Shown here: positions 1,723 through 60,700 of the stretch, in pieces
Position numbering within the stretch: position 1 is the first letter of the stretch
Layout: the number at the start of each line of letters is the position of its first letter
Assembly: GCA_000990585.1 (NCBI GenBank)
Contig: LBQD01000003.1
Location: 15,504 to 79,503 of the forward strand
Reading direction: 5' to 3'
DNA length: 64,000 nt
From: Candidatus Moranbacteria bacterium GW2011_GWE2_35_2-
Lineage (GTDB): Bacteria; Patescibacteriota; Minisyncoccia; Moranbacterales; UBA9337
Program-made: the position numbers and the translations under genes
Notes under the pieces: generated by a model
Databases searched by the model: none
Seen by the model: the letters and a program-made list of their open reading frames with translations, nothing else
Told to the model about the DNA's origin: nothing

Positions 1723-1978
1723 ATTTTAAATTGCACAAATTTTAAATTTTCAAACAATTCCGATAGGGTTGTGTGAATACGAGGGATTTAGGAGTTGTGA
1801 TGAGCGGGTGGGGAGAGTAGCTCAAATGACAAATTTCTAATTTCCAATGACAAATCAAAATAACAAAAAAAGATTTTTTATCAATGAGGGAGATGTGGTA
1901 AAATGGAGGAGTGGTGAGGTTTGGAGAGTAATATAAATTTTCAATTTCTAATTTTCAATTTTCAAACAATTTTAAATT

Positions 1979-2353
1979 TTGGAATTTATGAATTATAATC
2001 TGGAAGAAAGAACTAGGATTTTTAGCAAAGAAATAATTAGATTTTTGGTGAAAATAAAAAAGAATAGGATTAATGAAAACATCATTTCTCAATTAATAAG
2101 ATCCGCAACTAGCGTGGGTGCTAATTATTGCGAAGCCAACGGAGCCAGTTCAAAGAAAGATTTTAGCAATAAAATATTTATATGTCGCAAAGAAATACAA
2201 GAAACAAAATACTGGGTTGAACTCTTAGCCGAAGCCAGTCCGGAAGAAAAAGATAATTTGAAAAAACTTTGGAAAGAAGCTCATGAGTTGACATTAATTT
2301 TCAATAAAATTTCTAAAACATTAAAAGAAAAAAATTTGAAATTAAAAAATTAA
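1979..2353 (+). CDS. Four-helix-bundle protein of the 23S rRNA intervening-sequence (IVS) family
   Basis: QLIRSATSVGANYCEANGASSKKDFSNKIFICRKEIQETKYWVELL matches the conserved core of the IVS-encoded four-helix-bundle family (SxGANxAEA ... KDF ... KEakETkYWLeLL). The gene is flanked by inverted AT-rich repeats (1941-1978 and 2366-2393). Confidence 0.75.
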   Translation: MEFMNYNLEERTRIFSKEIIRFLVKIKKNRINENIISQLIRSATSVGANYCEANGASSKKDFSNKIFICRKEIQETKYWVELLAEASPEEKDNLKKLWKEAHELTLIFNKISKTLKEKNLKLKN

Positions 2354-2389
2354 ATCATTGAAAATTGTTTAGAAATTTAAAATTGAAAA

Positions 2390-5300
2390 TTGAAAATTAA
2401 AAACGCAATGCCAAAACTAAAACTTACAATATTATTCCTAGCCTTCATATTTCTTCCGACCATCGCTCATGGGGCGACTGAATTTATCTCCGTCATCGAT
2501 CCTGACAATGGTTCTGGAACAGATTACACTTCTCTTTCTGCTTGGGAAGCGGCGAATCAAGTTGATTTAACTGCGGCGACTACTTTGGTGATTGCCGGAA
2601 GTTTGACGCGTGGAACGATTGCTGATGGGACTCCGATAACCCAGACCACCTCGGGAGCCACGGCGGTTTGCGTCCATCACACTGAAACGCAAATGCTCAT
2701 CTCTACTCTTAGTGGAACTCCCAATGCCACCGACACTTGGTTTCCGACCGTTGATGGAAGCGACGCAACCAATGCTTGGACTCCGACCGATGCCGGCGAC
2801 AGTGCTATTGCGATTGCCAAATGCCGATCTACTTCTGGAACTGCCGACACAACTGCCGTTACCGTTGACGGTTGGACAACTTCCGCCGACAATTACATCA
2901 AAATCTGGACCGACCCAAGCGAGAATTATCGGCATCAGGGGAAGTGGGATGAGGGGAAGTATCGGCTGGAAGTTCCTCAGATATCCGGCGGAGGTAGTGG
3001 AATTAGAATTTTGGAAGAATATGTTTGGATTGATGGTTTACAAATCAAAAGAGTTATAACAACCGAGGCGGGGCAAGCCTGTGTCGCCGTAGGTGGGGCT
3101 TCTGGTGAAATTAAAATTTCTAATAATGTGTGTGAAATCAAAAATAACACTACATATTATGAATATGGTATTTATAAATATACACTATCTTCATCGGCAA
3201 CTTATAAAATTTGGAACAATGTAATATACGGAGTTGTAGATACTGACAATAATTCTGGAAGCGGAATGTATTTGGCAGCTGTAAGTCCTGTAGCAGAGAA
3301 TACTTATGTATATAACAATACAGTGGTTGGCTCATATTATGGAATTGCAAAAAGTGGTGGTACATGTATTTCCAAAAACAATATCGCCTACAACAACACC
3401 ATCGACTATTCCGGTACATTTGATTCATCCTCAACCAACAATCTTTCTAAAGACGCAACCGCTCCGCCATATAATACATATTATACCAACACCAGCGTTA
3501 TTTTCGCCGACGAAACCAATCAAGACTTTCATCTTGATTCCGCCGATACCGCCGCTCGCAATCAAGGCGCGATTCTTTACGACTCCGGCGATGATGCCAA
3601 TTTGAATTTTACAACCGACATCGACAACAATGCCCGCTTGGATAGCGCGGGGACTTGGGATATTGGGGCGGATGAGGGGATTACGAAAGTTTACCGCAGT
3701 GTCGGACCATCTGCCACGGCCGCCATCGCTACCGGTGCGACCTATGGCAATGTGGAAGTGAAGCCGGTGTATGTTTCCGGCTCAACCACTAACATCGCAG
3801 ATTATGTGGCGACTTTTTGGTCTGATTTGCCGATTAATGTCGGAGTAGGCGACGCTTTGCAATATGACGATGACGACGACGGAGATATTGACGCGTCCGA
3901 TTCTATTGTTTTTATCACCAAAAGAATTGATGCCTCGCATTTCAGCGTCCGCACCGCCAGCGGAACCGCGCCCGCCAGCACTCTTGCGCCGGATTCGAAT
4001 TGGTCAATTTTTCGCTCATACACTTCGCTTTTCAATGCCGAAGCCGGAGATGAGAATGATTCCATTGATGACGATTTGGAAGCGTTTGAAAGCTGGAGCG
4101 GAGGAAAAGATCTGCAAACAAGCCAGGAGCAATGGAATATCGCGGCGTATGCCGGACAAGGTGGCGTGGCAGATACGGTGGCGGTGGCTATTGATGGTTG
4201 GACGACGACAGCGGATTCATATATCAAAGTTTATACTCCGACTAGGAGCGATGAGGTTGGGGTGAGCCAGCGGCATAGTGGAGTATGGGATGCGACAAAA
4301 TACAATTTGTCGACGGGGACGGGAGTAGCTTCGGTGGATCTGAGGGAGAATTATACGGTTTTTGACGGTTTACAGATAACAAATTCCGGCACCGCCTCAA
4401 CGGATAATGATATTCTTGTTGCGGGATATATTAGCTTTACGAATGTGAAAAATTCCATCATTAAGGGTGGATATAATGGAATATATCATAGTGTGAGCAA
4501 TATTATTTATGGTGGAAATAAATTTTACGGAAATATTATTTATGAGACATATTATTCCGGGATAAGGATATATTTATCAGGCGCCACCCCATTGTCTTCG
4601 TATGTATATAATAATACCGTGTACAATTGCAATGCCAGTAATACAGCATGGAGAGGCGGAATAGAAACATTGAATGCTGATGTTGTCAAAAACAATATCT
4701 CAATGGAAAATGGAAATTTGGATTTTGTGAATGCCAATGGTCAATCCTACAACATATCCTCCGATGCAACTGCTGTCGGTACCGGAAGCCTTGCTAGTCA
4801 AACTCTTTCTAATATCGCTTTTGTTTCCACCACAAGCGGTATTGGCACCGACCTTTCCAACGACCCATACATACCATTCAATACCGACATTGATTCCGCT
4901 TGCTTGCGAAAAGATAAGCAATCAAGAGTATCCAATGGCGGGGATGATTCTTGCTACACAAGACCCAAAGGAACAAACTGGGATATCGGTGCGCATGAGC
5001 TTATTACGAAAATTTACCGAAGCGTCGCGCCGGATGCGGACGGGACTTTGGAAGCGCTCACCACCGGTGCAAGCAACGCAATGACTATCGCCAGCTCAAC
5101 CGCCACTTTCGCCACTGCTTTGGCGGACAACATCGGCGTGGGCGACGCTATTCAATATGACGCTGACGGCGACGGAGATATTGATGCGTCCGATTCCATC
5201 GTTTTCATTTCCGGCCGAACGGACAGCACCCACTTCACCGTCAAAACCGCCAGCGGAACCGTTCCAACCGCCGTTTCCGCCGACACGGATTGGAGCCTTT

Positions 5301-7606: not shown

Positions 7607-7731
7607 TTAGGGTGCAGTGATTATGAGCGGATGGGGAGAGTAGTTCCAATGACAAATCAAATCAAAAATCCAAATGACGAAATATAGCAATCGGCTTGAT
7701 TTTTAGCGTATTTTATGCTAATATATTAGAT

Positions 7732-8034
7732 ATGAATAGCTTGAAGATCAAAGTTAATAAGTTGTTTTGGTTTTTAGGAAAGGGCGGGGATTTTTCCAAA
7801 GATCGACATTTGATTATCCATCAAACGCTGGCTTTGGGATCGATGCAGGACGTACAAAGACTTTTTCGGGAATACGGACAAGAGAGCATAACGCATGAAT
7901 TTCAAAAACCAGTTTCGGGTCTTTACACTCCCGCAGTGTTTCATTTTTTTGAGCATATCTTGGGTGTTGAAATAAAAAATAGCGGGCGATATATTAAAAA
8001 TATACATGGAAAAACTTCATTTAGACATTCTTGA
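7732..8034 (+). CDS. Small protein translationally coupled to the AbiEii-like nucleotidyltransferase; putative cognate antitoxin or partner
   Basis: ~100-aa ORF whose 3' end overlaps the start of the downstream NTase gene by 29 nt, an arrangement typical of toxin–antitoxin pairs. No recognisable motif. The alternative start 7696 is further upstream. Confidence 0.35.
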   Translation: MNSLKIKVNKLFWFLGKGGDFSKDRHLIIHQTLALGSMQDVQRLFREYGQESITHEFQKPVSGLYTPAVFHFFEHILGVEIKNSGRYIKNIHGKTSFRHS

Positions 8035-8653
8035 TCAAGAGAGAAAGAATATTTTCCAAAAACTTTCCGCTTTCCGATCAATCGGATATTTGTCAGGCGG
8101 AACAGCTTTGGCGTTGCAACTGGGACACCGGGTGTCATATGATTTTGATATTTTTTGCGCCAAAGAAATTCCAGCGATGTTCGCTGCTAAAGTTCAAAAA
8201 GAAATAGTTGTCCGTCAAGTGCTGGTGAATAATAGTGATGAATTTACATTTCTTACCGACCACGACATTAAAGTGTCTTTTATTTTCTATCCTTTTGATT
8301 TGAAAAAATACGTGTTTGAATTTCCAGACGTTCCTATGGAATTAATTTCCCCACTGGGTATTGCGATTACAAAGGCTTATGCGCTAAACAGGCGGAATGC
8401 TTGGCGTGATTATGTTGATTTGTATGTAATTTTGAAAAAAGAAATCACGACTCTGGAAAATATTGTCAATGCGGCTCGCATTGCGTATGGGGAATTGTTT
8501 AATGAAAAGCTTTTTTTATCGCAACTATTATACACGCAAGATATTTCAAAGGCGGAAATAGAGAATACGCAAATGCTTGAATCAGCGACGCTTTTTGAAG
8601 TTGTGTCTTTTTTTGAAAAAGAAGTCAAAGCATATTGGGAAAGAAAGCTGTAA
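8006..8653 (+). CDS. AbiEii/DUF1814-type nucleotidyltransferase (type IV TA / abortive-infection toxin family)
   Basis: GYLSGGTALALQLGHRVSYDFDIF matches the GGTAL...R.S.D.D motif of the AbiEii nucleotidyltransferase fold. Size is 215 aa. Confidence 0.6.
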   Translation: MEKLHLDILDQERKNIFQKLSAFRSIGYLSGGTALALQLGHRVSYDFDIFCAKEIPAMFAAKVQKEIVVRQVLVNNSDEFTFLTDHDIKVSFIFYPFDLKKYVFEFPDVPMELISPLGIAITKAYALNRRNAWRDYVDLYVILKKEITTLENIVNAARIAYGELFNEKLFLSQLLYTQDISKAEIENTQMLESATLFEVVSFFEKEVKAYWERKL

Positions 8654-8757: not shown

Positions 8758-8783
8758 TTATTTAAATGACAAATTTCCAATTA

Positions 8784-9665: not shown

Positions 9666-12263
9666 ATGGAAATAAAGGTAAATACGGGCTCCGGAATAAA
9701 AAAAAACGATGAATATTTGGAAAGAACCAGAATTGAAAAATTTGCTCCTTCTGCGGAAAGCAAAACGGAACGGGTTTTTGCTTCAAAAATCGAACCTAAG
9801 CGAAATGCTTTTGTTTCGGAAATAAAAAAGGAAGTTAGCGGAAAAGAAAAGAAAGGCTTCCTTCATTTTTTTGGCAACATATCCGACAAAATTATCGGAC
9901 TGAGTATTTTTATGATTTTTTTCGGAGTGCCATTATTTTTTACCGGAATTACTTTTCAGGGAATATCATTTGAAAAACAAATTTATTTTTATCTTTGGTT
10001 GTTGGTTGGATTGGTGGCATGGTTGGCAAAAAGCATTAAAACCGGTGAGATGAGAATTCGCAAAACTCCATTGGATATTCCTATTTTTTTGTTTTGGGGT
10101 GCCTATCTCGCTTCGCTGGCTTTTTCCGTCGACCACTGGCACAGCTTTTTTGGATTTTTCGGAGATCCGTCAAGAGGATTTTTGAATGTGACGGCTTTTG
10201 TGGTGGCGTATTATTTCTTTTTCTCCCATATTGAAAAAGAAAGAATAAAATTGGCATTGGGGGCGATTGTTGCGAGCGGAACACTGGTGTCGGCTTGGAC
10301 GATTGTTCGCTTGTTGAATCTGCAAATTATCCCACAAGTTGTTTTAGAAAATTCTCCCGCAAGTTTGTTGGGATCTTTTTCGGGACTGAATATTTTTTTG
10401 GGAGTTTTTGTTCTTTTGTCCGTTGGCGCTATTTTGAAAATTGTTTCTTTGGAAAAATTGTCTAGCACAAAGAAAATAGTAACAATAATTTTTCTTTTTA
10501 TAGCTCTTTTTTTCGGTGCGGCAGCTTTTGTTTTAGTGCAAAGTTTTGCTTTTTGGCCGGCAATCTTGATTGGGAGTGGAATTTTTTCTTTATATGCTTT
10601 TTCTCGGGTAATAAAAATGCCTTTTCATTGGATTTGGCTTCCAATGGCGGTTTTCGTTTTTTTTATGGCAATTTTTATGGTGGGAGACAGAAATCTGAAT
10701 TTGTCGCGCGTGAGTTTGCCGGCGGAAGTGAGTCTCTCTTACGGATTATCATGGGATATTATCAAGGAAGGGATGAAAGAGAGTGTTATTTCCGGATCGG
10801 GACCGGCGACATATGGATACGCTTTTTCAAAATTCAAACCGCAAGATTTCAATCTAAATCAATTTTACGACTTGCGTTTCTATCAAGGTTCCGGGTTATT
10901 GTTTGAATCGGTTCCGACGATTGGAATTTTGGGAACAGTCTTTTTGTTTTTGTTGGTTTTTTCCTATCTGAGTGTTTCTGTCTATTTGATTTCACGGGAA
11001 AAGGATAAGGAAAAAACATTATCTTTATCGTTTTTTTCCGCTTCCGTTATTTTGATTTTGGGAATATTTATTTCTAAGGCTTCCGGTCCGATTGTTTTAC
11101 TTGGATTTTTAGTATCGGCAATGGCATTACTTTCAATTATTTTGGAAAGTGAGGCGCAGGCTAATTATTTTGATTTGTCGCTCAAAGCTTCTCCGAAATA
11201 TGCACTTTCTTTGGCTTTTGTTTTTGTAGTGCTCAGCAGTGCAATTGTTTTTTCTTTTGTTTTTTTGGGCAAAGTGTTTGCCAGTGACGCATTGGCAGGG
11301 ATAGCAATTAAGGAAAGCCGTGAGGATAGGGAAAAAGCGGTGGAGAAAATGCAACGAGCAATTGCGCTTAATCCGAAAGAGGGAAGATATTATACTCGTT
11401 TAGGACAGGAATATTTGATTTTAACCAATGAGCAAGCAATCGGAAAAGATGCGAAAAATAATACAGAGAAGATCAAAAAATATTTAAGTAATTCCATTCT
11501 TCTTTTGAACAAAGGAAAGGAATTGATGAATAATGATTTGAACGCAGTCGAAGGTTTGGCGCAGGCGTATGAAAATGCAGGACTCTATGTTTTTGAATCG
11601 AACAAAAAAGCATTGGAAAATTATGAAAGAGCTGCCGAGCTTGATCCGAATAATCCGAATTTACAGGTCAAGATTGGAAAGGTGCGGATGACTCTTTCCG
11701 GCGCTATGGAAGATAATGATGAGAAAAAGGCGTATATGGAAGATACTAAAAAAGTCTTGGAAAAATCCGTAGAACTGAAAAAGAACTTTGCTGACGGATA
11801 TTATAATTTGGCATTGGCTCAGGAGCAGATGGGATCGCTAGATTCTTCGGTTGCAAATATGGAAAAAGCTGCGACGCTCAGTCCTTCTAATGTGAATGTG
11901 TTTTTCAATTTGGGAAGATTATATCAAAAGCGTTCCGGCGAAGAAGATTTGAAAAAAGCGGAAGCTATTTTCAAAAAGATATTGGAAATAAACAAGGATG
12001 ATGTTAATACCAATTTTAGTCTCGGGCTTTTGTTCGAAAAAACCAACCGCAAAAATGAAGCGATTGAGCAATATCGAAAAGTCATTGCCCTAATTGAAAG
12101 CGGACAGCAAAATGAAATTGCGAAGAAAAATATTGAGCAAATAAACGCAATGATTTCAAATATTCAAAAAGGACAAAACAACAATGTTCAGCAAGTAGAG
12201 GAAAATGTTCTAGAAAATCAAGAACAAAAAATTCCAGAAGTTGAGGTTATCGAAGGGGAATAG
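9666..12263 (+). CDS. Polytopic membrane protein with an O-antigen ligase/polymerase-like (Wzy_C) core and a C-terminal TPR repeat domain
   Basis: About 12 transmembrane segments are followed by TPR-like repeats (ALNPKEGRYYTRLGQEYL, AAELDPNNPNLQVKIGKV, ATLSPSNVNVFFNLGRLYQK). This architecture is common in CPR genomes. Confidence 0.6.
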   Translation: MEIKVNTGSGIKKNDEYLERTRIEKFAPSAESKTERVFASKIEPKRNAFVSEIKKEVSGKEKKGFLHFFGNISDKIIGLSIFMIFFGVPLFFTGITFQGISFEKQIYFYLWLLVGLVAWLAKSIKTGEMRIRKTPLDIPIFLFWGAYLASLAFSVDHWHSFFGFFGDPSRGFLNVTAFVVAYYFFFSHIEKERIKLALGAIVASGTLVSAWTIVRLLNLQIIPQVVLENSPASLLGSFSGLNIFLGVFVLLSVGAILKIVSLEKLSSTKKIVTIIFLFIALFFGAAAFVLVQSFAFWPAILIGSGIFSLYAFSRVIKMPFHWIWLPMAVFVFFMAIFMVGDRNLNLSRVSLPAEVSLSYGLSWDIIKEGMKESVISGSGPATYGYAFSKFKPQDFNLNQFYDLRFYQGSGLLFESVPTIGILGTVFLFLLVFSYLSVSVYLISREKDKEKTLSLSFFSASVILILGIFISKASGPIVLLGFLVSAMALLSIILESEAQANYFDLSLKASPKYALSLAFVFVVLSSAIVFSFVFLGKVFASDALAGIAIKESREDREKAVEKMQRAIALNPKEGRYYTRLGQEYLILTNEQAIGKDAKNNTEKIKKYLSNSILLLNKGKELMNNDLNAVEGLAQAYENAGLYVFESNKKALENYERAAELDPNNPNLQVKIGKVRMTLSGAMEDNDEKKAYMEDTKKVLEKSVELKKNFADGYYNLALAQEQMGSLDSSVANMEKAATLSPSNVNVFFNLGRLYQKRSGEEDLKKAEAIFKKILEINKDDVNTNFSLGLLFEKTNRKNEAIEQYRKVIALIESGQQNEIAKKNIEQINAMISNIQKGQNNNVQQVEENVLENQEQKIPEVEVIEGE

Positions 12264-12330
12264 AGCTAGGAATTAAGAATCAGGAATCAGGAATCAGGAA
12301 TTAAGAATTAGGAATTATTGATTAATAATT
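12264..12330. repeat. Seven tandem copies of the heptamer (T/C)A(G/A)GAAT followed by a 10-bp perfect inverted repeat and a T-run
   Basis: ctaggaat taagaat caggaat caggaat caggaat taagaat taggaat, then AGGAATTATTgatTAATAATTCCTaatttttta. This is a terminator-like hairpin between the convergent genes. Confidence 0.7.
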
Positions 12331-20205: not shown

Positions 20206-20582
20206 GGATATTGCTAGTAAATAATTTGTTTGATTATTTAAAAGCCTTCGCAAAATTGAAATTTAAAACTCGGGATTGTCTGAAAAATACATCCCTTGGC
20301 ACAAAATAATCATTGTGCTTATGGATGTGTTTTTTGTTCGTAAATATTCGAGCGAAATTCAAGAACTTTGACAATTGAATCCTAGTTAATAAAACTAGCG
20401 TAAATAATCGCAATTTTTTGCGGTTAGTCCTTTGGCACGCCAAAGCTTCTTTGAAGCGTAGGCGGCCTATATCCGCCGTTGCTCTTATGAGCTATGGCGT
20501 GACGAAGTTAGAGTCTATTCAAAACTAAAGAATTTATTTTCTTTTTTATACGAATGAATAAGTATTTATACTTGTCATTCTT

Positions 20583-22123
<1,541 letters not shown>

Positions 22124-22136
<13 letters not shown>

Positions 22137-33954: not shown

Positions 33955-34164
33955 AATTTTCAGATTAAAATATATAGTCAGACAAATTTAATTGTGAATT
34001 TGTATATTAAAGCAGTTATTTCTTAGACTTCATTACGAGTTTATTTTTTGAAAATAAGCATATTTTATTGCTAAATTTGACTAAATGGGATAAATTATAA
34101 AGTAGAATATTAATTAATTACGATAGCTAAAAAGCTAAAAAGCTGAAAGCTACAAGCTAAAAAA

Positions 34165-60053: not shown

Positions 60054-60091
60054 AAACAACCTCTTTTGTGAGATTGTTTTTATTTTATGTG

Positions 60092-60165
60092 TGGGCGATC
60101 CAGGACTCGAACCTGGGACCTCAGCATTATCAGTGCTGCGCTCTAACCACCTGAGCTAATCGCCC
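60092..60165 (-). tRNA. tRNA-Ile (anticodon GAU)
   Basis: Reverse complement: GGGCGATTAGCTCAGGTGGTTAGAGCGCAGCACTGATAATGCTGAGGTCCCAGGTTCGAGTCCTGGATCGCCCA. Cloverleaf with the anticodon loop cuGAUaa. Confidence 0.95.
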
Positions 60166-60213
60166 TTAAAAACGAAAATGCTGCGCCGCGTGATGAGCGT
60201 AGCGAATTTTACG

Positions 60214-60289
60214 TGGTGGACCGGACAGGACTTGAACCCGCTACCTCCTCGGTGCAAGCGAGGCGCTCTACCAGGTGAGCTACCGGCCC
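60214..60289 (-). tRNA. tRNA-Ala (anticodon UGC), CCA encoded
   Basis: Reverse complement: GGGCCGGTAGCTCACCTGGTAGAGCGCCTCGCTTGCACCGAGGAGGTAGCGGGTTCAAGTCCTGTCCGGTCCACCA. G3:U70 Ala identity pair. Confidence 0.95.
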
Positions 60290-60637: not shown

Positions 60638-60700
60638 AAATAATAATTTTTAATTTTCAATCCGCCGGTTGGCGGATTAGAAATTAGAAATTGATATAAT

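What the first reader, a model, noticed from the sequence alone, without database searches (positions are those of the whole stretch)
1930..2400. rRNA-IVS-type four-helix-bundle gene, flanked by inverted repeats, sitting between protein-coding genes instead of inside an rRNA
The 124-aa protein matches the family normally encoded inside 23S rRNA intervening sequences. Here it lies between two surface-protein genes. It is bracketed by AT-rich inverted repeats: 1941-1978 …aattttcaattttcaaacaattttaaatttt, and 2366-2393 aaatttaaaattgaaaattgaaaatt, which is the reverse complement of aattttcaattttcaattttaaattt. These would form the long stem that RNase III excises in genuine IVSs. The same aattttcaatt / agaaattagaaatt repeat family makes up the ORF-less IVS in this organism's 16S (21614-21766). 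It also appears as a miniature hairpin element upstream of nusG (60641-60690, aattttcaat-CCGCCggttGGCGG-attagaaattagaaatt). This suggests a small mobile or 'processed-insert' element family, of which the four-helix-bundle gene is the cargo-bearing version.
Basis: partly seen in the sequence, partly recalled or inferred. Interest (0 to 1): 0.7.

Follow-up and report, generated by a model that had tools for sequence, protein, structure and literature searches.

The report
Hairpin-bracketed four-helix-bundle gene cassette
A small gene of the kind known from inserts in ribosomal RNA genes sits here between two ordinary genes, enclosed by mirror-image runs of 7-base repeats; the same package recurs in hundreds of related bacteria and, with different 7-base units, in distant phyla, which may explain long-puzzling 7-base repeats in bacterial genomes.

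Summary
The finding is confirmed and reaches much further than the window. Positions 1988-2353 encode a 121-aa four-helix-bundle (4HB) protein: TIGR02436 79 bits, PF05635 59 bits, and an AlphaFold2 model that matches 2RLD, Xcc0516 and Avd. The gene is bracketed by inverted arrays of four AATTTNN heptads plus a core (AAACAAT / ATTGTTT) at 1936-1987 and 2354-2398. The two arms alone fold with z = -3.7.

- **CPR genomes.** 71 of 79 4HB loci from about 75 Candidate Phyla Radiation (CPR) genomes have this bracket. None lies in an rRNA gene. In 55 of 58 loci both neighbours share the 4HB strand, and never the opposite one. The cassette fills the whole spacer.
- **Unit of duplication.** Two copies in one genome are 95% identical exactly from first to last heptad.
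- **ORF-less versions.** One sits in the 16S gene (21631-21744), at a site shared with 10 further distinct CPR 16S sequences. Another sits between secE and nusG (60645-60692).
- **Other phyla.** In 12 of 14 plasmid loci from Cyanobacteria, Bacteroidota, Chloroflexota and Spirochaetota, distant 4HB genes carry inverted heptad arrays built from other heptamers.
- **Classical IVS.** The Coxiella 23S intervening sequence (IVS) has heptamer repeats where RNase III cuts.

Best reading: a selfish IVS-type hairpin cassette, co-transcribed with its host and excised by RNase III. How it spreads and what the protein does remain unknown.

The parts
1936..1987 (+). Left arm: four tandem heptads (AATTTTC 1936-1942, AATTTCT 1943-1949, AATTTTC 1950-1956, AATTTTC 1957-1963), the conserved core AAACAAT (1964-1970), and an inner segment that runs up to the ATG.
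   Evidence: Inverted repeat I1; TRF period 7, 4.3 copies; the anchored alignment of 19 loci shows in-register heptads plus an invariant core.
1988..2353 (+). Four-helix-bundle protein gene: 121 aa, pI 9.6, motif RxxxSxxxNxxE at residues 38-49. An alternative TTG start lies at 1979.
   Evidence: TIGR02436 79 bits and PF05635 59 bits; 2RLD E = 7e-13; AlphaFold2 pLDDT 92.4 with four helices, top fold matches 2RLD, 2GSC and 4DWL; dN/dS of 0.03-0.09 between homologues; motif and pI.
2354..2398 (+). Right arm: an inner segment, the core ATTGTTT (2364-2370), then four heptads (AGAAATT 2371-2377, TAAAATT 2378-2384, GAAAATT 2385-2391, GAAAATT 2392-2398). It ends 9 nt before the ATG (2408) of the next gene.
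1723..1761 (+). Orphan left-arm remnant (AATTTTAAATTTTCAAACAATT) directly after the stop codon of the upstream gene. It is 95% identical to 1950-1971 and 91% complementary to 2363-2384.
   Evidence: Repeats D7 and I4.
1762..1935 (+). Mosaic spacer. It holds a remnant of the 3' end of a paralogous surface-protein gene (translates to ...VVKWRSGEVWRVI*, compare L002 3380-3422) whose stop abuts the left arm. It also holds an extended -10-like TGGTAAAAT (1896-1904) that is conserved in related strains.
   Evidence: That this is a promoter is an inference.
21631..21744 (+). ORF-less member inside the 16S rRNA gene, in the region aligned to E. coli 1126-1174. It consists of left heptads, the core ATTGTTT and (AGAAATT)x4, and forms the tip of an extended hairpin spanning 21605-21775.
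   Evidence: The same site and architecture occur in 12 metagenomic CPR 16S loci (10 further distinct sequences), none with an ORF.
60645..60692 (+). Miniature member between secE and nusG: two heptads on each side of a GC-rich mini-palindrome CCGCCggttGGCGG.

Best explanation
The feature is one copy of a compact (about 463 bp) IVS-type cassette. It consists of a four-helix-bundle (TIGR02436/PF05635, Avd-like) gene wrapped tightly between two inverted arrays of tandem heptanucleotide repeats.

**What is shown.**
- The cassette is a discrete unit that has been duplicated or transposed as a whole.
- It is widespread in CPR/Patescibacteria.
- It inserts co-directionally into the spacer between two genes of a transcription unit, next to unrelated housekeeping genes.
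- The ORF and the arms are both under strong purifying selection.
- It has ORF-less derivatives, including one inside this organism's 16S rRNA gene.

**What is inferred.**
- The cassette is transcribed as part of the host RNA.
- The arms pair into a duplex of about 40-55 bp that is AU-rich and interrupted every 7 bp.
- RNase III cuts this duplex, as shown experimentally for the Coxiella 23S IVS. That removes the insert from rRNA, or splits a polycistronic mRNA at the spacer, and releases the 4HB mRNA, whose start codon otherwise lies at the top of the stem.
- The element therefore behaves as a largely harmless hitch-hiker.

How it spreads and what the protein does are not known.
For: **Family membership.**

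**Stem.**

**Conserved bracket in CPR genomes.**
- The flank inverted-repeat score averages 22.6, against 9.3 for shuffles, 8.7 for control ORFs and 16.6 for mismatched partners. 71 of 79 loci exceed the control 95th percentile.
- Period-7 arrays lie within 100 nt upstream in 76 of 79 loci, downstream in 69 of 79 and on both sides in 66 of 79. Enrichment over the rest of the loci is 22-fold.
- The variable dinucleotides of the heptads covary between arms: covariation score 0.115 against 0.077, with 0 of 500 shuffles reaching it.

**Orientation and fit.**
- Both neighbours are on the 4HB strand in 55 of 58 loci, and on the opposite strand in none.
- The median gap is 4 nt from the upstream stop codon and 14 nt to the next ATG.
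- Arms have a median length of 40.5 nt. They end a median 13 nt before the ATG and begin a median 7.5 nt after the stop.

**Discrete unit.** L065 and L080, two loci of one genome, are 95% identical from first to last heptad and share nothing outside.

**Constraint.**
- dN/dS is 0.03-0.09.
- By my count from the alignments, the arms differ at 0 of about 106 positions in a pair with dS 0.47 and at 3 of about 95 in a pair with dS 0.28 (dS).

**Neighbours are unrelated housekeeping genes.** Examples are YchF, ParB, GlpX, GAPDH, aldolase, DnaJ and AhcY.

**ORF-less forms.**
- In 16S genes.
- In spacers: 17 solo hairpins in 615 kb.
- 16S hairpins show the G-U signature expected of RNA: the sense strand is more stable in 11 of 12.

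**Link to classical IVS.** The Coxiella IVS is 428 nt, carries the S23p ORF, has 2-3 tandem heptamers before the ATG, and has its RNase III 5' site at the first repeat (PMC4990558). IVP ORFs are also reported inside CPR 16S and 23S inserts (PMC11270868).
Against: - No transcript data exist for this organism, so RNase III cleavage is untested.
- No RNase III signature was found in the window or in the 615 kb of related loci. That sample is too small to be informative.
- The cassette arms show no sense-strand bias: 124 G-U against 106 A-C mismatches, p = 0.26. Sense and antisense folds are equally stable, -27.8 against -28.6 kcal/mol. Complementarity could therefore be maintained at the DNA level.
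- About one third of cells at the variable heptad positions are unpaired, which makes an unusual RNase III substrate.
- In other phyla some cassettes lie antisense to their neighbours (L129, L136).
- Identical proteins were always found in the same genomic context, so recent mobility is rare.
Confidence: 0.6

Rival explanations
1. DNA-level mobile element. The heptad arrays are terminal inverted repeats of a non-autonomous, MITE-like transposon, or a recombination cassette, moved by an enzyme encoded elsewhere. Any RNA stem is a by-product.
For: - Sharp element boundaries at the outermost heptads in an intragenomic pair.
- Termini are AATTT...AAATT in most loci.
- ORF-less miniature copies are dispersed in spacers.
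- Arm complementarity is symmetric on both strands.
- The arms are nearly invariant while synonymous sites diverge.
- L036 has two cassettes of different subfamilies behind identical 115-nt host sequence, which suggests cassette exchange.
Against: - No transposase or recombinase lies in or next to the cassettes.
- No target-site duplication is visible, although AATT termini could hide one.
- The number of heptads per end varies.
- Strict co-orientation with host genes (55:0) is not expected for a transposon with its own promoter.
- No close relatives were found in viral contigs.
Confidence: 0.2
2. The heptad arrays are the specific nucleic-acid ligand of the 4HB protein, which is pentameric in solved relatives. 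Each arm would offer about five 7-nt units, one per subunit. Binding would autoregulate, protect or package the cassette RNA or DNA. This is compatible with either of the two explanations above.
For: - 7-nt periodicity is conserved across phyla while the heptamer sequence is specific to the lineage or cassette.
- Arrays have a median of 4.3-4.4 copies plus a 7-nt core in CPR genomes, and many arrays of about 4.6-4.9 copies occur in cyanobacteria.
- Within heptads a 5-nt block is invariant and 2 nt vary.
- The protein is basic, pI 9.6.
- The closest structures, 2RLD and 2GSC, each have five chains A-E. Xcc0516 is described as five four-helix bundles. Avd is part of a DGR ribonucleoprotein (8UB7).
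Against: - There is no binding data.
- Copy number ranges from 2 to 41.
- ORF-less copies exist far from any 4HB gene.
- Slippage alone can generate 7-nt arrays (a view cited in PMC4692102).
Confidence: 0.25
3. The gene is the Avd accessory protein of a diversity-generating retroelement (DGR) that diversifies the neighbouring surface proteins.
For: - PF05635 resembles Avd.
- The fold search finds 4DWL and 8UB7.
- The neighbours are large repetitive surface-type proteins, and CPR genomes are rich in DGRs (the latter from memory).
Against: - No reverse transcriptase lies within about 10 kb on either side (Pfam calls on the genes of L001/L002).
- The neighbours of the 80 homologous cassettes are unrelated housekeeping genes.
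- The match to Avd is far weaker (E = 0.47) than to the S23/IVS proteins.
Confidence: 0.02
4. Chance complementarity of AT-rich, low-complexity spacer DNA around an ordinary small gene.
For: - The genome is AT-rich.
- The whole-region fold z-score is only -1.06.
Against: - The stem-only z-score is -3.66.
- 71 of 79 homologous loci exceed the control 95th percentile.
- There is cross-phylum recurrence with GC-containing heptamers.
Confidence: 0.01

Closest known systems
Coxiella burnetii 23S rRNA intervening sequence with the S23p ORF (Warrier et al. 2016, PMC4990558); Leptospira IVSs are similar (from memory)
   Same: - The size class matches (428 nt against about 463 nt).
- The protein family is the same.
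- The ORF is enclosed by complementary ends.
- Tandem heptamer repeats lie directly before the ATG, and their copy number varies between strains.
- RNase III cuts at the first repeat.
   Different: - The Coxiella element sits in helix 45 of 23S rRNA, whereas this one sits between protein-coding genes.
- The Coxiella ORF is decaying and apparently not expressed, whereas the CPR ORFs are under strong purifying selection (dN/dS 0.03-0.09).
- The heptamer differs: GACAGAT against AATTTNN.
Free-standing 'four helix bundle protein' genes (TIGR02436) of Cyanobacteria, Bacteroidota and other phyla, including those noted inside cas operons (Zhang & Ye 2013, PMC3936711)
   Same: - They are small genes, usually co-oriented, wedged between unrelated operon genes.
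- They share the RxxxSxxxNxxE motif.
- In the 14 plasmid loci examined they are flanked by inverted heptad arrays.
   Different: - Protein identity is only 30-44%.
- The heptamers differ: AATTCGT, AATCCCC, AAGTCGG, GAAAGTG, CCAGTTA and others.
- In the library searched, the repeat bracket has not been described for them.
Unexplained intergenic heptanucleotide repeats: STRR/CCCCAAT in cyanobacteria (from memory), GGGAATC in Xanthomonas and GGGGAYT in Nostoc (PMC4692102), TAACTGA in Beggiatoaceae (PMC4679880), and arrays of 4-5 heptamers in inverted pairs in Geobacter (PMC2700814)
   Same: - They are tandem 7-nt units, typically 2-8 copies, located in spacers next to start or stop codons and sometimes in inverted pairs.
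- AATCCCC (Planktothrix) and CCAGTTA (the reverse complement of TAACTGG; Euhalothece) arms of 4HB cassettes match these published units.
   Different: - Most published arrays lie next to no 4HB gene.
- Those papers propose G-quadruplex, regulator-binding or slippage explanations and do not mention 4HB proteins.
Correia/nemis elements of Neisseria and similar MITEs whose transcribed hairpins are RNase III substrates (from memory, not checked here)
   Same: - They are short dispersed hairpin-forming inverted-repeat elements in spacers.
- They are co-transcribed with neighbours and processed by RNase III.
- They resemble the ORF-less 100-125-nt copies.
   Different: - Correia elements have defined TA duplications and no heptad substructure.
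- They have no ORF-bearing master copy of the 4HB type.
Avd of diversity-generating retroelements (PDB 4DWL, 8UB7)
   Same: It has the same fold superfamily, forms a basic pentameric four-helix-bundle protein, and acts within an RNA-protein complex.
   Different: There is no reverse transcriptase and no template/variable repeat pair here. The sequence and fold match is much weaker than to the S23/IVS proteins.

Membership tests
TIGR02436 / PF05635 four-helix-bundle (23S rRNA IVS protein, 'S23') family | Profile score above the curated cutoff | tested here: met
   TIGR02436 79.1 bits against a cutoff of 24; PF05635 59.2 bits against 33.8.
TIGR02436 / PF05635 four-helix-bundle (23S rRNA IVS protein, 'S23') family | Four-helix-bundle fold like 2RLD and Xcc0516 | tested here: met
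   The AlphaFold2 model has pLDDT 92.4 and four helices. Foldseek top hits are 2RLD (TM 0.76-0.85) and 2GSC (TM 0.78-0.83). phmmer against 2RLD gives E = 7e-13.
TIGR02436 / PF05635 four-helix-bundle (23S rRNA IVS protein, 'S23') family | Conserved motif (G)xxRxxxSxxxNxxE | tested here: met
   RSATSVGANYCE at residues 38-49. The motif is as given in PMC3936711.
TIGR02436 / PF05635 four-helix-bundle (23S rRNA IVS protein, 'S23') family | Homopentameric assembly | not testable with these tools
   Only inferred from relatives: both crystal structures have chains A-E, and the Xcc0516 paper title is cited.
rRNA intervening sequence (IVS) element | Located inside an rRNA gene helix | tested here: not met
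   The cassette lies 18 kb from the 16S gene, between protein-coding genes. 0 of 80 homologous CPR loci lie within 23S or 16S. The ORF-less copy at 21631-21744 does meet this feature.
rRNA intervening sequence (IVS) element | Complementary ends that form a long stem enclosing the insert | tested here: met
   family-wide.
rRNA intervening sequence (IVS) element | Excision by RNase III without religation | not testable with these tools
   Shown only for Coxiella. No transcript data are available here.
rRNA intervening sequence (IVS) element | Tandem heptamer repeats adjoining the ORF (as in the Coxiella IVS) | tested here: met
   Period 7, 4.3 and 4.4 copies; compare.
DGR accessory variability determinant (Avd) | Adjacent reverse transcriptase gene | tested here: not met
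   No RVT domain was found among genes within about 10 kb.
DGR accessory variability determinant (Avd) | Template/variable repeat pair with adenine-specific differences | not tested
   Not searched for, because no RT is present.
MITE / terminal-inverted-repeat transposon | Terminal inverted repeats and multiple dispersed copies | tested here: met
MITE / terminal-inverted-repeat transposon | Target-site duplication | tested here: inconclusive
   No direct repeat is seen outside the arms in 62 loci or in the L065/L080 pair. A palindromic AATT duplication would be hidden in the termini, and no empty site was found.
MITE / terminal-inverted-repeat transposon | A cognate transposase in the genome | not tested
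   Only 64 kb plus flanks of the source genome were available.

The most novel reading that the evidence does not exclude
Inverted arrays of about five tandem heptanucleotides are the cognate nucleic-acid partner of pentameric four-helix-bundle (S23/IVS/Avd-like) proteins. Protein plus arrays would form a self-contained, ancient, cross-phylum element that lives in rRNA genes and operon spacers. Many of the long-unexplained intergenic heptanucleotide repeats would then be its ORF-less footprints: STRR in cyanobacteria, GGGAATC in Xanthomonas, TAACTGA in Beggiatoaceae and the Geobacter 'H4' sites.
Probability: 0.25. Interest if true: 0.9.

Novelty: new variant of a known kind. Interest (0 to 1): 0.72.

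Why it matters
The 4HB/IVS protein family is very large. This single query found 4182 related proteins (E <= 0.001; the listed best 120 are 70-98% identical). Its function has been unknown since the early 1990s.

Heptanucleotide tandem repeats are the most over-represented class of long simple repeats in many bacteria, and no accepted explanation exists for them.

The gene is almost always wrapped in inverted heptad arrays, from CPR bacteria to cyanobacteria, spirochaetes and the classical Coxiella IVS. That ties the two puzzles together and makes both directly testable, through RNase III cleavage assays, protein-heptad binding assays and genome-wide co-occurrence counts.

It also gives a concrete origin for the short ORF-less inserts in CPR 16S rRNA genes. 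Finally, these cassettes break operons, including CRISPR-Cas, BREX/DISARM and glycolytic operons, at defined points, which bears on operon annotation and RNA processing.

Tried and rejected
1. **The stem bridges a Shine-Dalgarno (SD) sequence to the downstream ATG.** Dropped. Most genes in the window lack an SD. The purine-rich stretches before left arms are the 3' ends of upstream genes, with stop codons abutting the arm.
2. **Strand-asymmetry tests (G-U against A-C; sense against antisense folding).** These were meant to prove RNA-level selection on the cassette arms. They were inconclusive. The same test is positive for the 16S hairpins over the whole hairpin (11 of 12) and only suggestive for the AT-rich part (8 of 12, p = 0.06).
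3. **Recent mobility.** Identical or near-identical proteins (the window protein, P0001, P0014, P0072) sit next to the same downstream gene in every contig. Only the upstream rearrangements differ.
4. **Phage carriage.** No relative was found in IMG/VR.
5. **Rfam.** No family covers the region. The promoter and terminator scan was uninformative in this AT-rich DNA.
6. **RNase III gene.** The signature was not found in the window or in 615 kb of related loci. The sample is too small to conclude anything.
7. **4HB ORF inside the 16S insert of other CPR genomes.** None was found in the 12 real hits. The other 5 of the 17 pattern hits were chance matches in a protein-coding gene.
8. **Weak IVP hit in the 884-aa upstream protein (L002).** This is a different, GC-richer partial 4HB domain without heptad arms.
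9. **TIGR-Tas arrays.** They surfaced in literature searches but are unrelated.
10. **Empty-site search.** Not achieved with the available look-ups.
Full report
**Source and setting.** The window comes from contig LBTC01000001.1 of a Candidatus Moranbacteria genome (GCA_000989265.1, Rifle groundwater). Nearly all genes are on the + strand and most lack Shine-Dalgarno sequences. The window holds:
- a stand-alone 16S rRNA gene at 20580-22135;
- tRNA-Ala and tRNA-Ile on the opposite strand near 60.1 kb;
- no 23S gene.

It matches PDB 2RLD by sequence (E = 7e-13).
- *The fold.* It is predicted with pLDDT 92 as a four-helix bundle. The best structural neighbours are the S23-family proteins 2RLD and Xcc0516, with the DGR protein Avd more distant.
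- *Protein properties.* It is basic (pI 9.6) and carries the family motif RxxxSxxxNxxE.
- *The flanks.* They are inverted repeats: 1936-1994 against 2340-2398, 59 nt, 80% complementary. The two arms alone fold at -27 kcal/mol, z = -3.66. The whole region's z of -1.06 shows that only the long-range stem is special.
- *Arm anatomy.* The left arm is four heptads AATTTNN (1936-1963) plus a core AAACAAT (1964-1970). The right arm is the core ATTGTTT (2364-2370) plus four heptads NNAAATT (2371-2398).

**It is a conserved cassette, not a local oddity.** A protein search found 4182 relatives; the listed best 120 are 70-98% identical and those named by a source are from CPR bacteria. I fetched 80 loci from GTDB species representatives.
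- *Not in rRNA.* None lies in or next to a 23S gene, and only one has a 16S gene, 3.5 kb away.
- *Flank complementarity.* Aligning the 140 nt upstream against the reverse complement of the 140 nt downstream scores 22.6 on average. Comparison values are 9.3 for dinucleotide shuffles, 8.7 for 211 control ORFs in the same loci and 16.6 for arms paired with another locus's partner. 71 of 79 loci exceed the control 95th percentile.
- *Heptad arrays.* TRF finds a period-7 array within 100 nt upstream in 76 of 79 loci, downstream in 69 of 79 and on both sides in 66 of 79. The median is 4.3-4.4 copies and enrichment over the rest of the loci is 22-fold.
- *Covariation.* In an alignment anchored on the core, the AATTT/AAATT blocks and the core are invariant and only the two remaining positions of each heptad vary. 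These covary between the arms more than in shuffles (0 of 500), although about a third of those cells are unpaired.

**Position and orientation.**
- In 55 of 58 evaluable loci both neighbours are on the same strand as the 4HB gene, and in none are both on the other strand.
- The left arm starts a median 4 nt after the upstream stop codon. The right arm ends a median 14 nt before the next ATG.
- Arm-to-arm length has a median of 470 bp, range 438-547.
- The arms have a median length of 40 nt and close to within about 13 nt of the ATG and about 8 nt of the stop. The cassette is essentially ORF plus stem.
- The neighbours are unrelated housekeeping genes: YchF, ParB, GlpX, GAPDH, class I aldolase, DnaJ, AhcY, RpiB and T2SS-F. 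This argues for a hitch-hiker rather than a functional partner.

**Unit character and selection.**
- *Duplication as a unit.* Two loci of one genome (L065, L080) share 95% nucleotide identity that begins at the first heptad of the left arm and ends at the last heptad of the right arm. There is no similarity outside and no visible target duplication. This is the most direct evidence that the cassette has been copied as a unit.
- *Vertical inheritance.* Orthologous sites (L076/L083; L015/L019 between glpX and fba) show inheritance over considerable divergence.
- *Selection.* The ORF evolves under dN/dS of 0.03-0.09. The arms are even more conserved than synonymous sites. By my count from the alignments, they differ at 0 of about 106 positions where dS is 0.47 and at 3 of about 95 where dS is 0.28.
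- *This lineage.* The spacer is a mosaic: an orphan left arm follows the upstream stop codon (1723-1761), then comes a remnant of a paralogous gene's 3' end whose stop abuts the intact left arm. A related strain carries a truncated second cassette (L092).

**ORF-less relatives.**
- *In the 16S gene.* The 16S gene has about 140 extra nt between E. coli positions 1126 and 1174. They are built from the same heptads, core and inner segments and fold into one long hairpin (z = -7.2). A metagenome scan found the same insert at the same site in 12 further CPR 16S loci (10 further distinct sequences, 78-93% 16S identity), none with an ORF. There the sense strand folds better than the antisense in 11 of 12 sequences, the G-U signature of selection on RNA.
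- *In spacers.* A 48-nt version with a GC-rich tip sits between secE and nusG. Seventeen solo hairpins were found in 615 kb of related loci, mostly 85-130 nt (range 30-128).
- *Published context.* Surveys report 23S_rRNA_IVP ORFs inside some CPR 16S and 23S inserts and many short uncharacterised inserts.

**An unexpected generalisation.**
- *Survey.* tblastn against plasmids found 30 records with distant homologues (30-44% identity) in Cyanobacteria, Bacteroidota, Chloroflexota, Spirochaetota and others. I examined 14 of them.
- *Context.* They are again small inserts between unrelated genes: drmD|4HB|pglX, csx2|4HB|cas1, DUF1156|4HB|Swt1-HEPN in two phyla, and an RND adaptor|4HB|permease. Most are co-oriented; two are antisense.
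- *Heptad arrays.* 12 of the 14 have period-7 arrays on both sides. In 9 of these the upstream heptamer is the reverse complement of the downstream one within one mismatch. The remaining two have arrays with periods that are multiples of seven. Enrichment is 15-fold.
- *Heptamers differ.* Examples are AATTCGT, AAGTCGG and GCAATTC (Nostoc), AATCCCC/AATCGTA (Planktothrix), CCAGTTA (Euhalothece), ATGAATT (Chlorohelix) and GAAAGNG/CTCTCCG (Treponema).
- *Coxiella.* The experimentally studied Coxiella 23S IVS has two to three GACAGAT repeats before the S23p ATG, and RNase III cuts at the first repeat.

Seven-nucleotide periodicity, not sequence, is therefore the conserved property of 4HB cassettes.

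**Literature.** Unexplained intergenic heptamer arrays have been described several times without reference to 4HB genes:
- Xanthomonas and Nostoc;
- Beggiatoaceae;
- Geobacter.

Nine full-text searches found no paper that makes this connection. Subscription-only papers were not searchable.

**Mechanism.**
- *Best-supported reading (confidence about 0.6).* This is an IVS-type selfish cassette transcribed as part of its host RNA. Its arms pair and are cut by RNase III.
- *Support.* Shown: the architecture, conservation, co-orientation, unit duplication and rRNA-borne relatives. Inferred: co-transcription, cleavage and release of the 4HB mRNA.
- *Evidence against a purely RNA-level function.* There is no sense-strand G-U excess in the cassette arms.
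- *Alternatives that remain open.* A DNA-level role for the arms as terminal repeats (0.2) and specific binding of the heptads by the protein, which is probably pentameric (0.25). Neither excludes the best reading.
- *Alternatives effectively excluded.* An Avd/DGR role (no RT) and chance complementarity.

**Verdict.** The element is a new variant of a known kind: IVS elements and 4HB genes are known, but the heptad-array bracket outside rRNA and its cross-phylum generality appear undescribed. Interest is 0.72.

Noticed in passing
L002 3432-3992 (about 6.5 kb upstream of window position 1); remnants at window 1826-1855 and 8766-8782: A DUF559 (Vsr-like endonuclease) ORF is bracketed by a perfect 15-nt inverted repeat, AATGACAAATTTCCA / TGGAAATTTGTCATT, plus GC-rich inner palindromes. 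It occupies the neighbouring spacer between surface-protein genes. This looks like a second kind of hairpin-bracketed small-ORF cassette in the same gene array.
   Followed up: partly
window 12267-12317: A heptad array (AGGAATY) x7.3 lies directly after the stop of the TPR gene 9666-12263 and has no inverted partner nearby. The same array lies just upstream of the cassette's left arm in the related strain L092.
   Followed up: no
window 34125-34162: (AGCTAAA) x5 ends 2 nt before the ATG of a class II aminoacyl-tRNA synthetase gene. This resembles the published 'TAACTGA upstream of start codons' pattern.
   Followed up: no
window 60662-60675; L042, L075, L038; 16S inserts of L096 and L108: Small GC-rich palindromes (CCGCCggttGGCGG; cctgcctg...caggcagg) are nested inside heptad arms. 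This suggests that the arrays are themselves targets for a second, tiny insertion element.
   Followed up: no
L036 2536-2907 and 4001-4375: Two cassettes of different 4HB subfamilies (about 60% nt identity) each follow an identical 115-nt stretch of host sequence and precede the same 'agttATGg' start. This hints at cassette replacement at a fixed site, or at gene conversion of the host flanks.
   Followed up: partly
L123-L136 (plasmid loci of other phyla): Distant 4HB cassettes are often lodged inside defence operons: DISARM/BREX drmD|pglX, csx2|cas1, cas2|cas1, DUF1156|Swt1-HEPN in both a cyanobacterium and a Chloroflexota member, and helicase|methyltransferase.
   Followed up: partly
L002 768-3422: The N-terminus (residues 18-86) of an 884-aa LamG protein gives a sub-threshold PF05635 hit (29.5 bits). 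This is either a divergent, GC-richer 4HB domain fused to a surface protein or a gene-calling artefact.
   Followed up: partly
window 20580-22135 and 60091-60289: The rRNA operon is dispersed. The 16S gene stands alone, tRNA-Ala and tRNA-Ile lie 38 kb away on the opposite strand, and there is no 23S gene in the 64 kb.
   Followed up: no
window 7696-8653: A DUF6922 / AbiEii (type IV toxin-antitoxin) pair lies directly downstream of the large surface-protein gene. In a related strain, AbiEii is instead the gene immediately upstream of the cassette (L092), which shows rearrangement around the cassette.
   Followed up: partly
whole window: Most genes have A/T-rich leaders without a Shine-Dalgarno sequence.
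   Followed up: no
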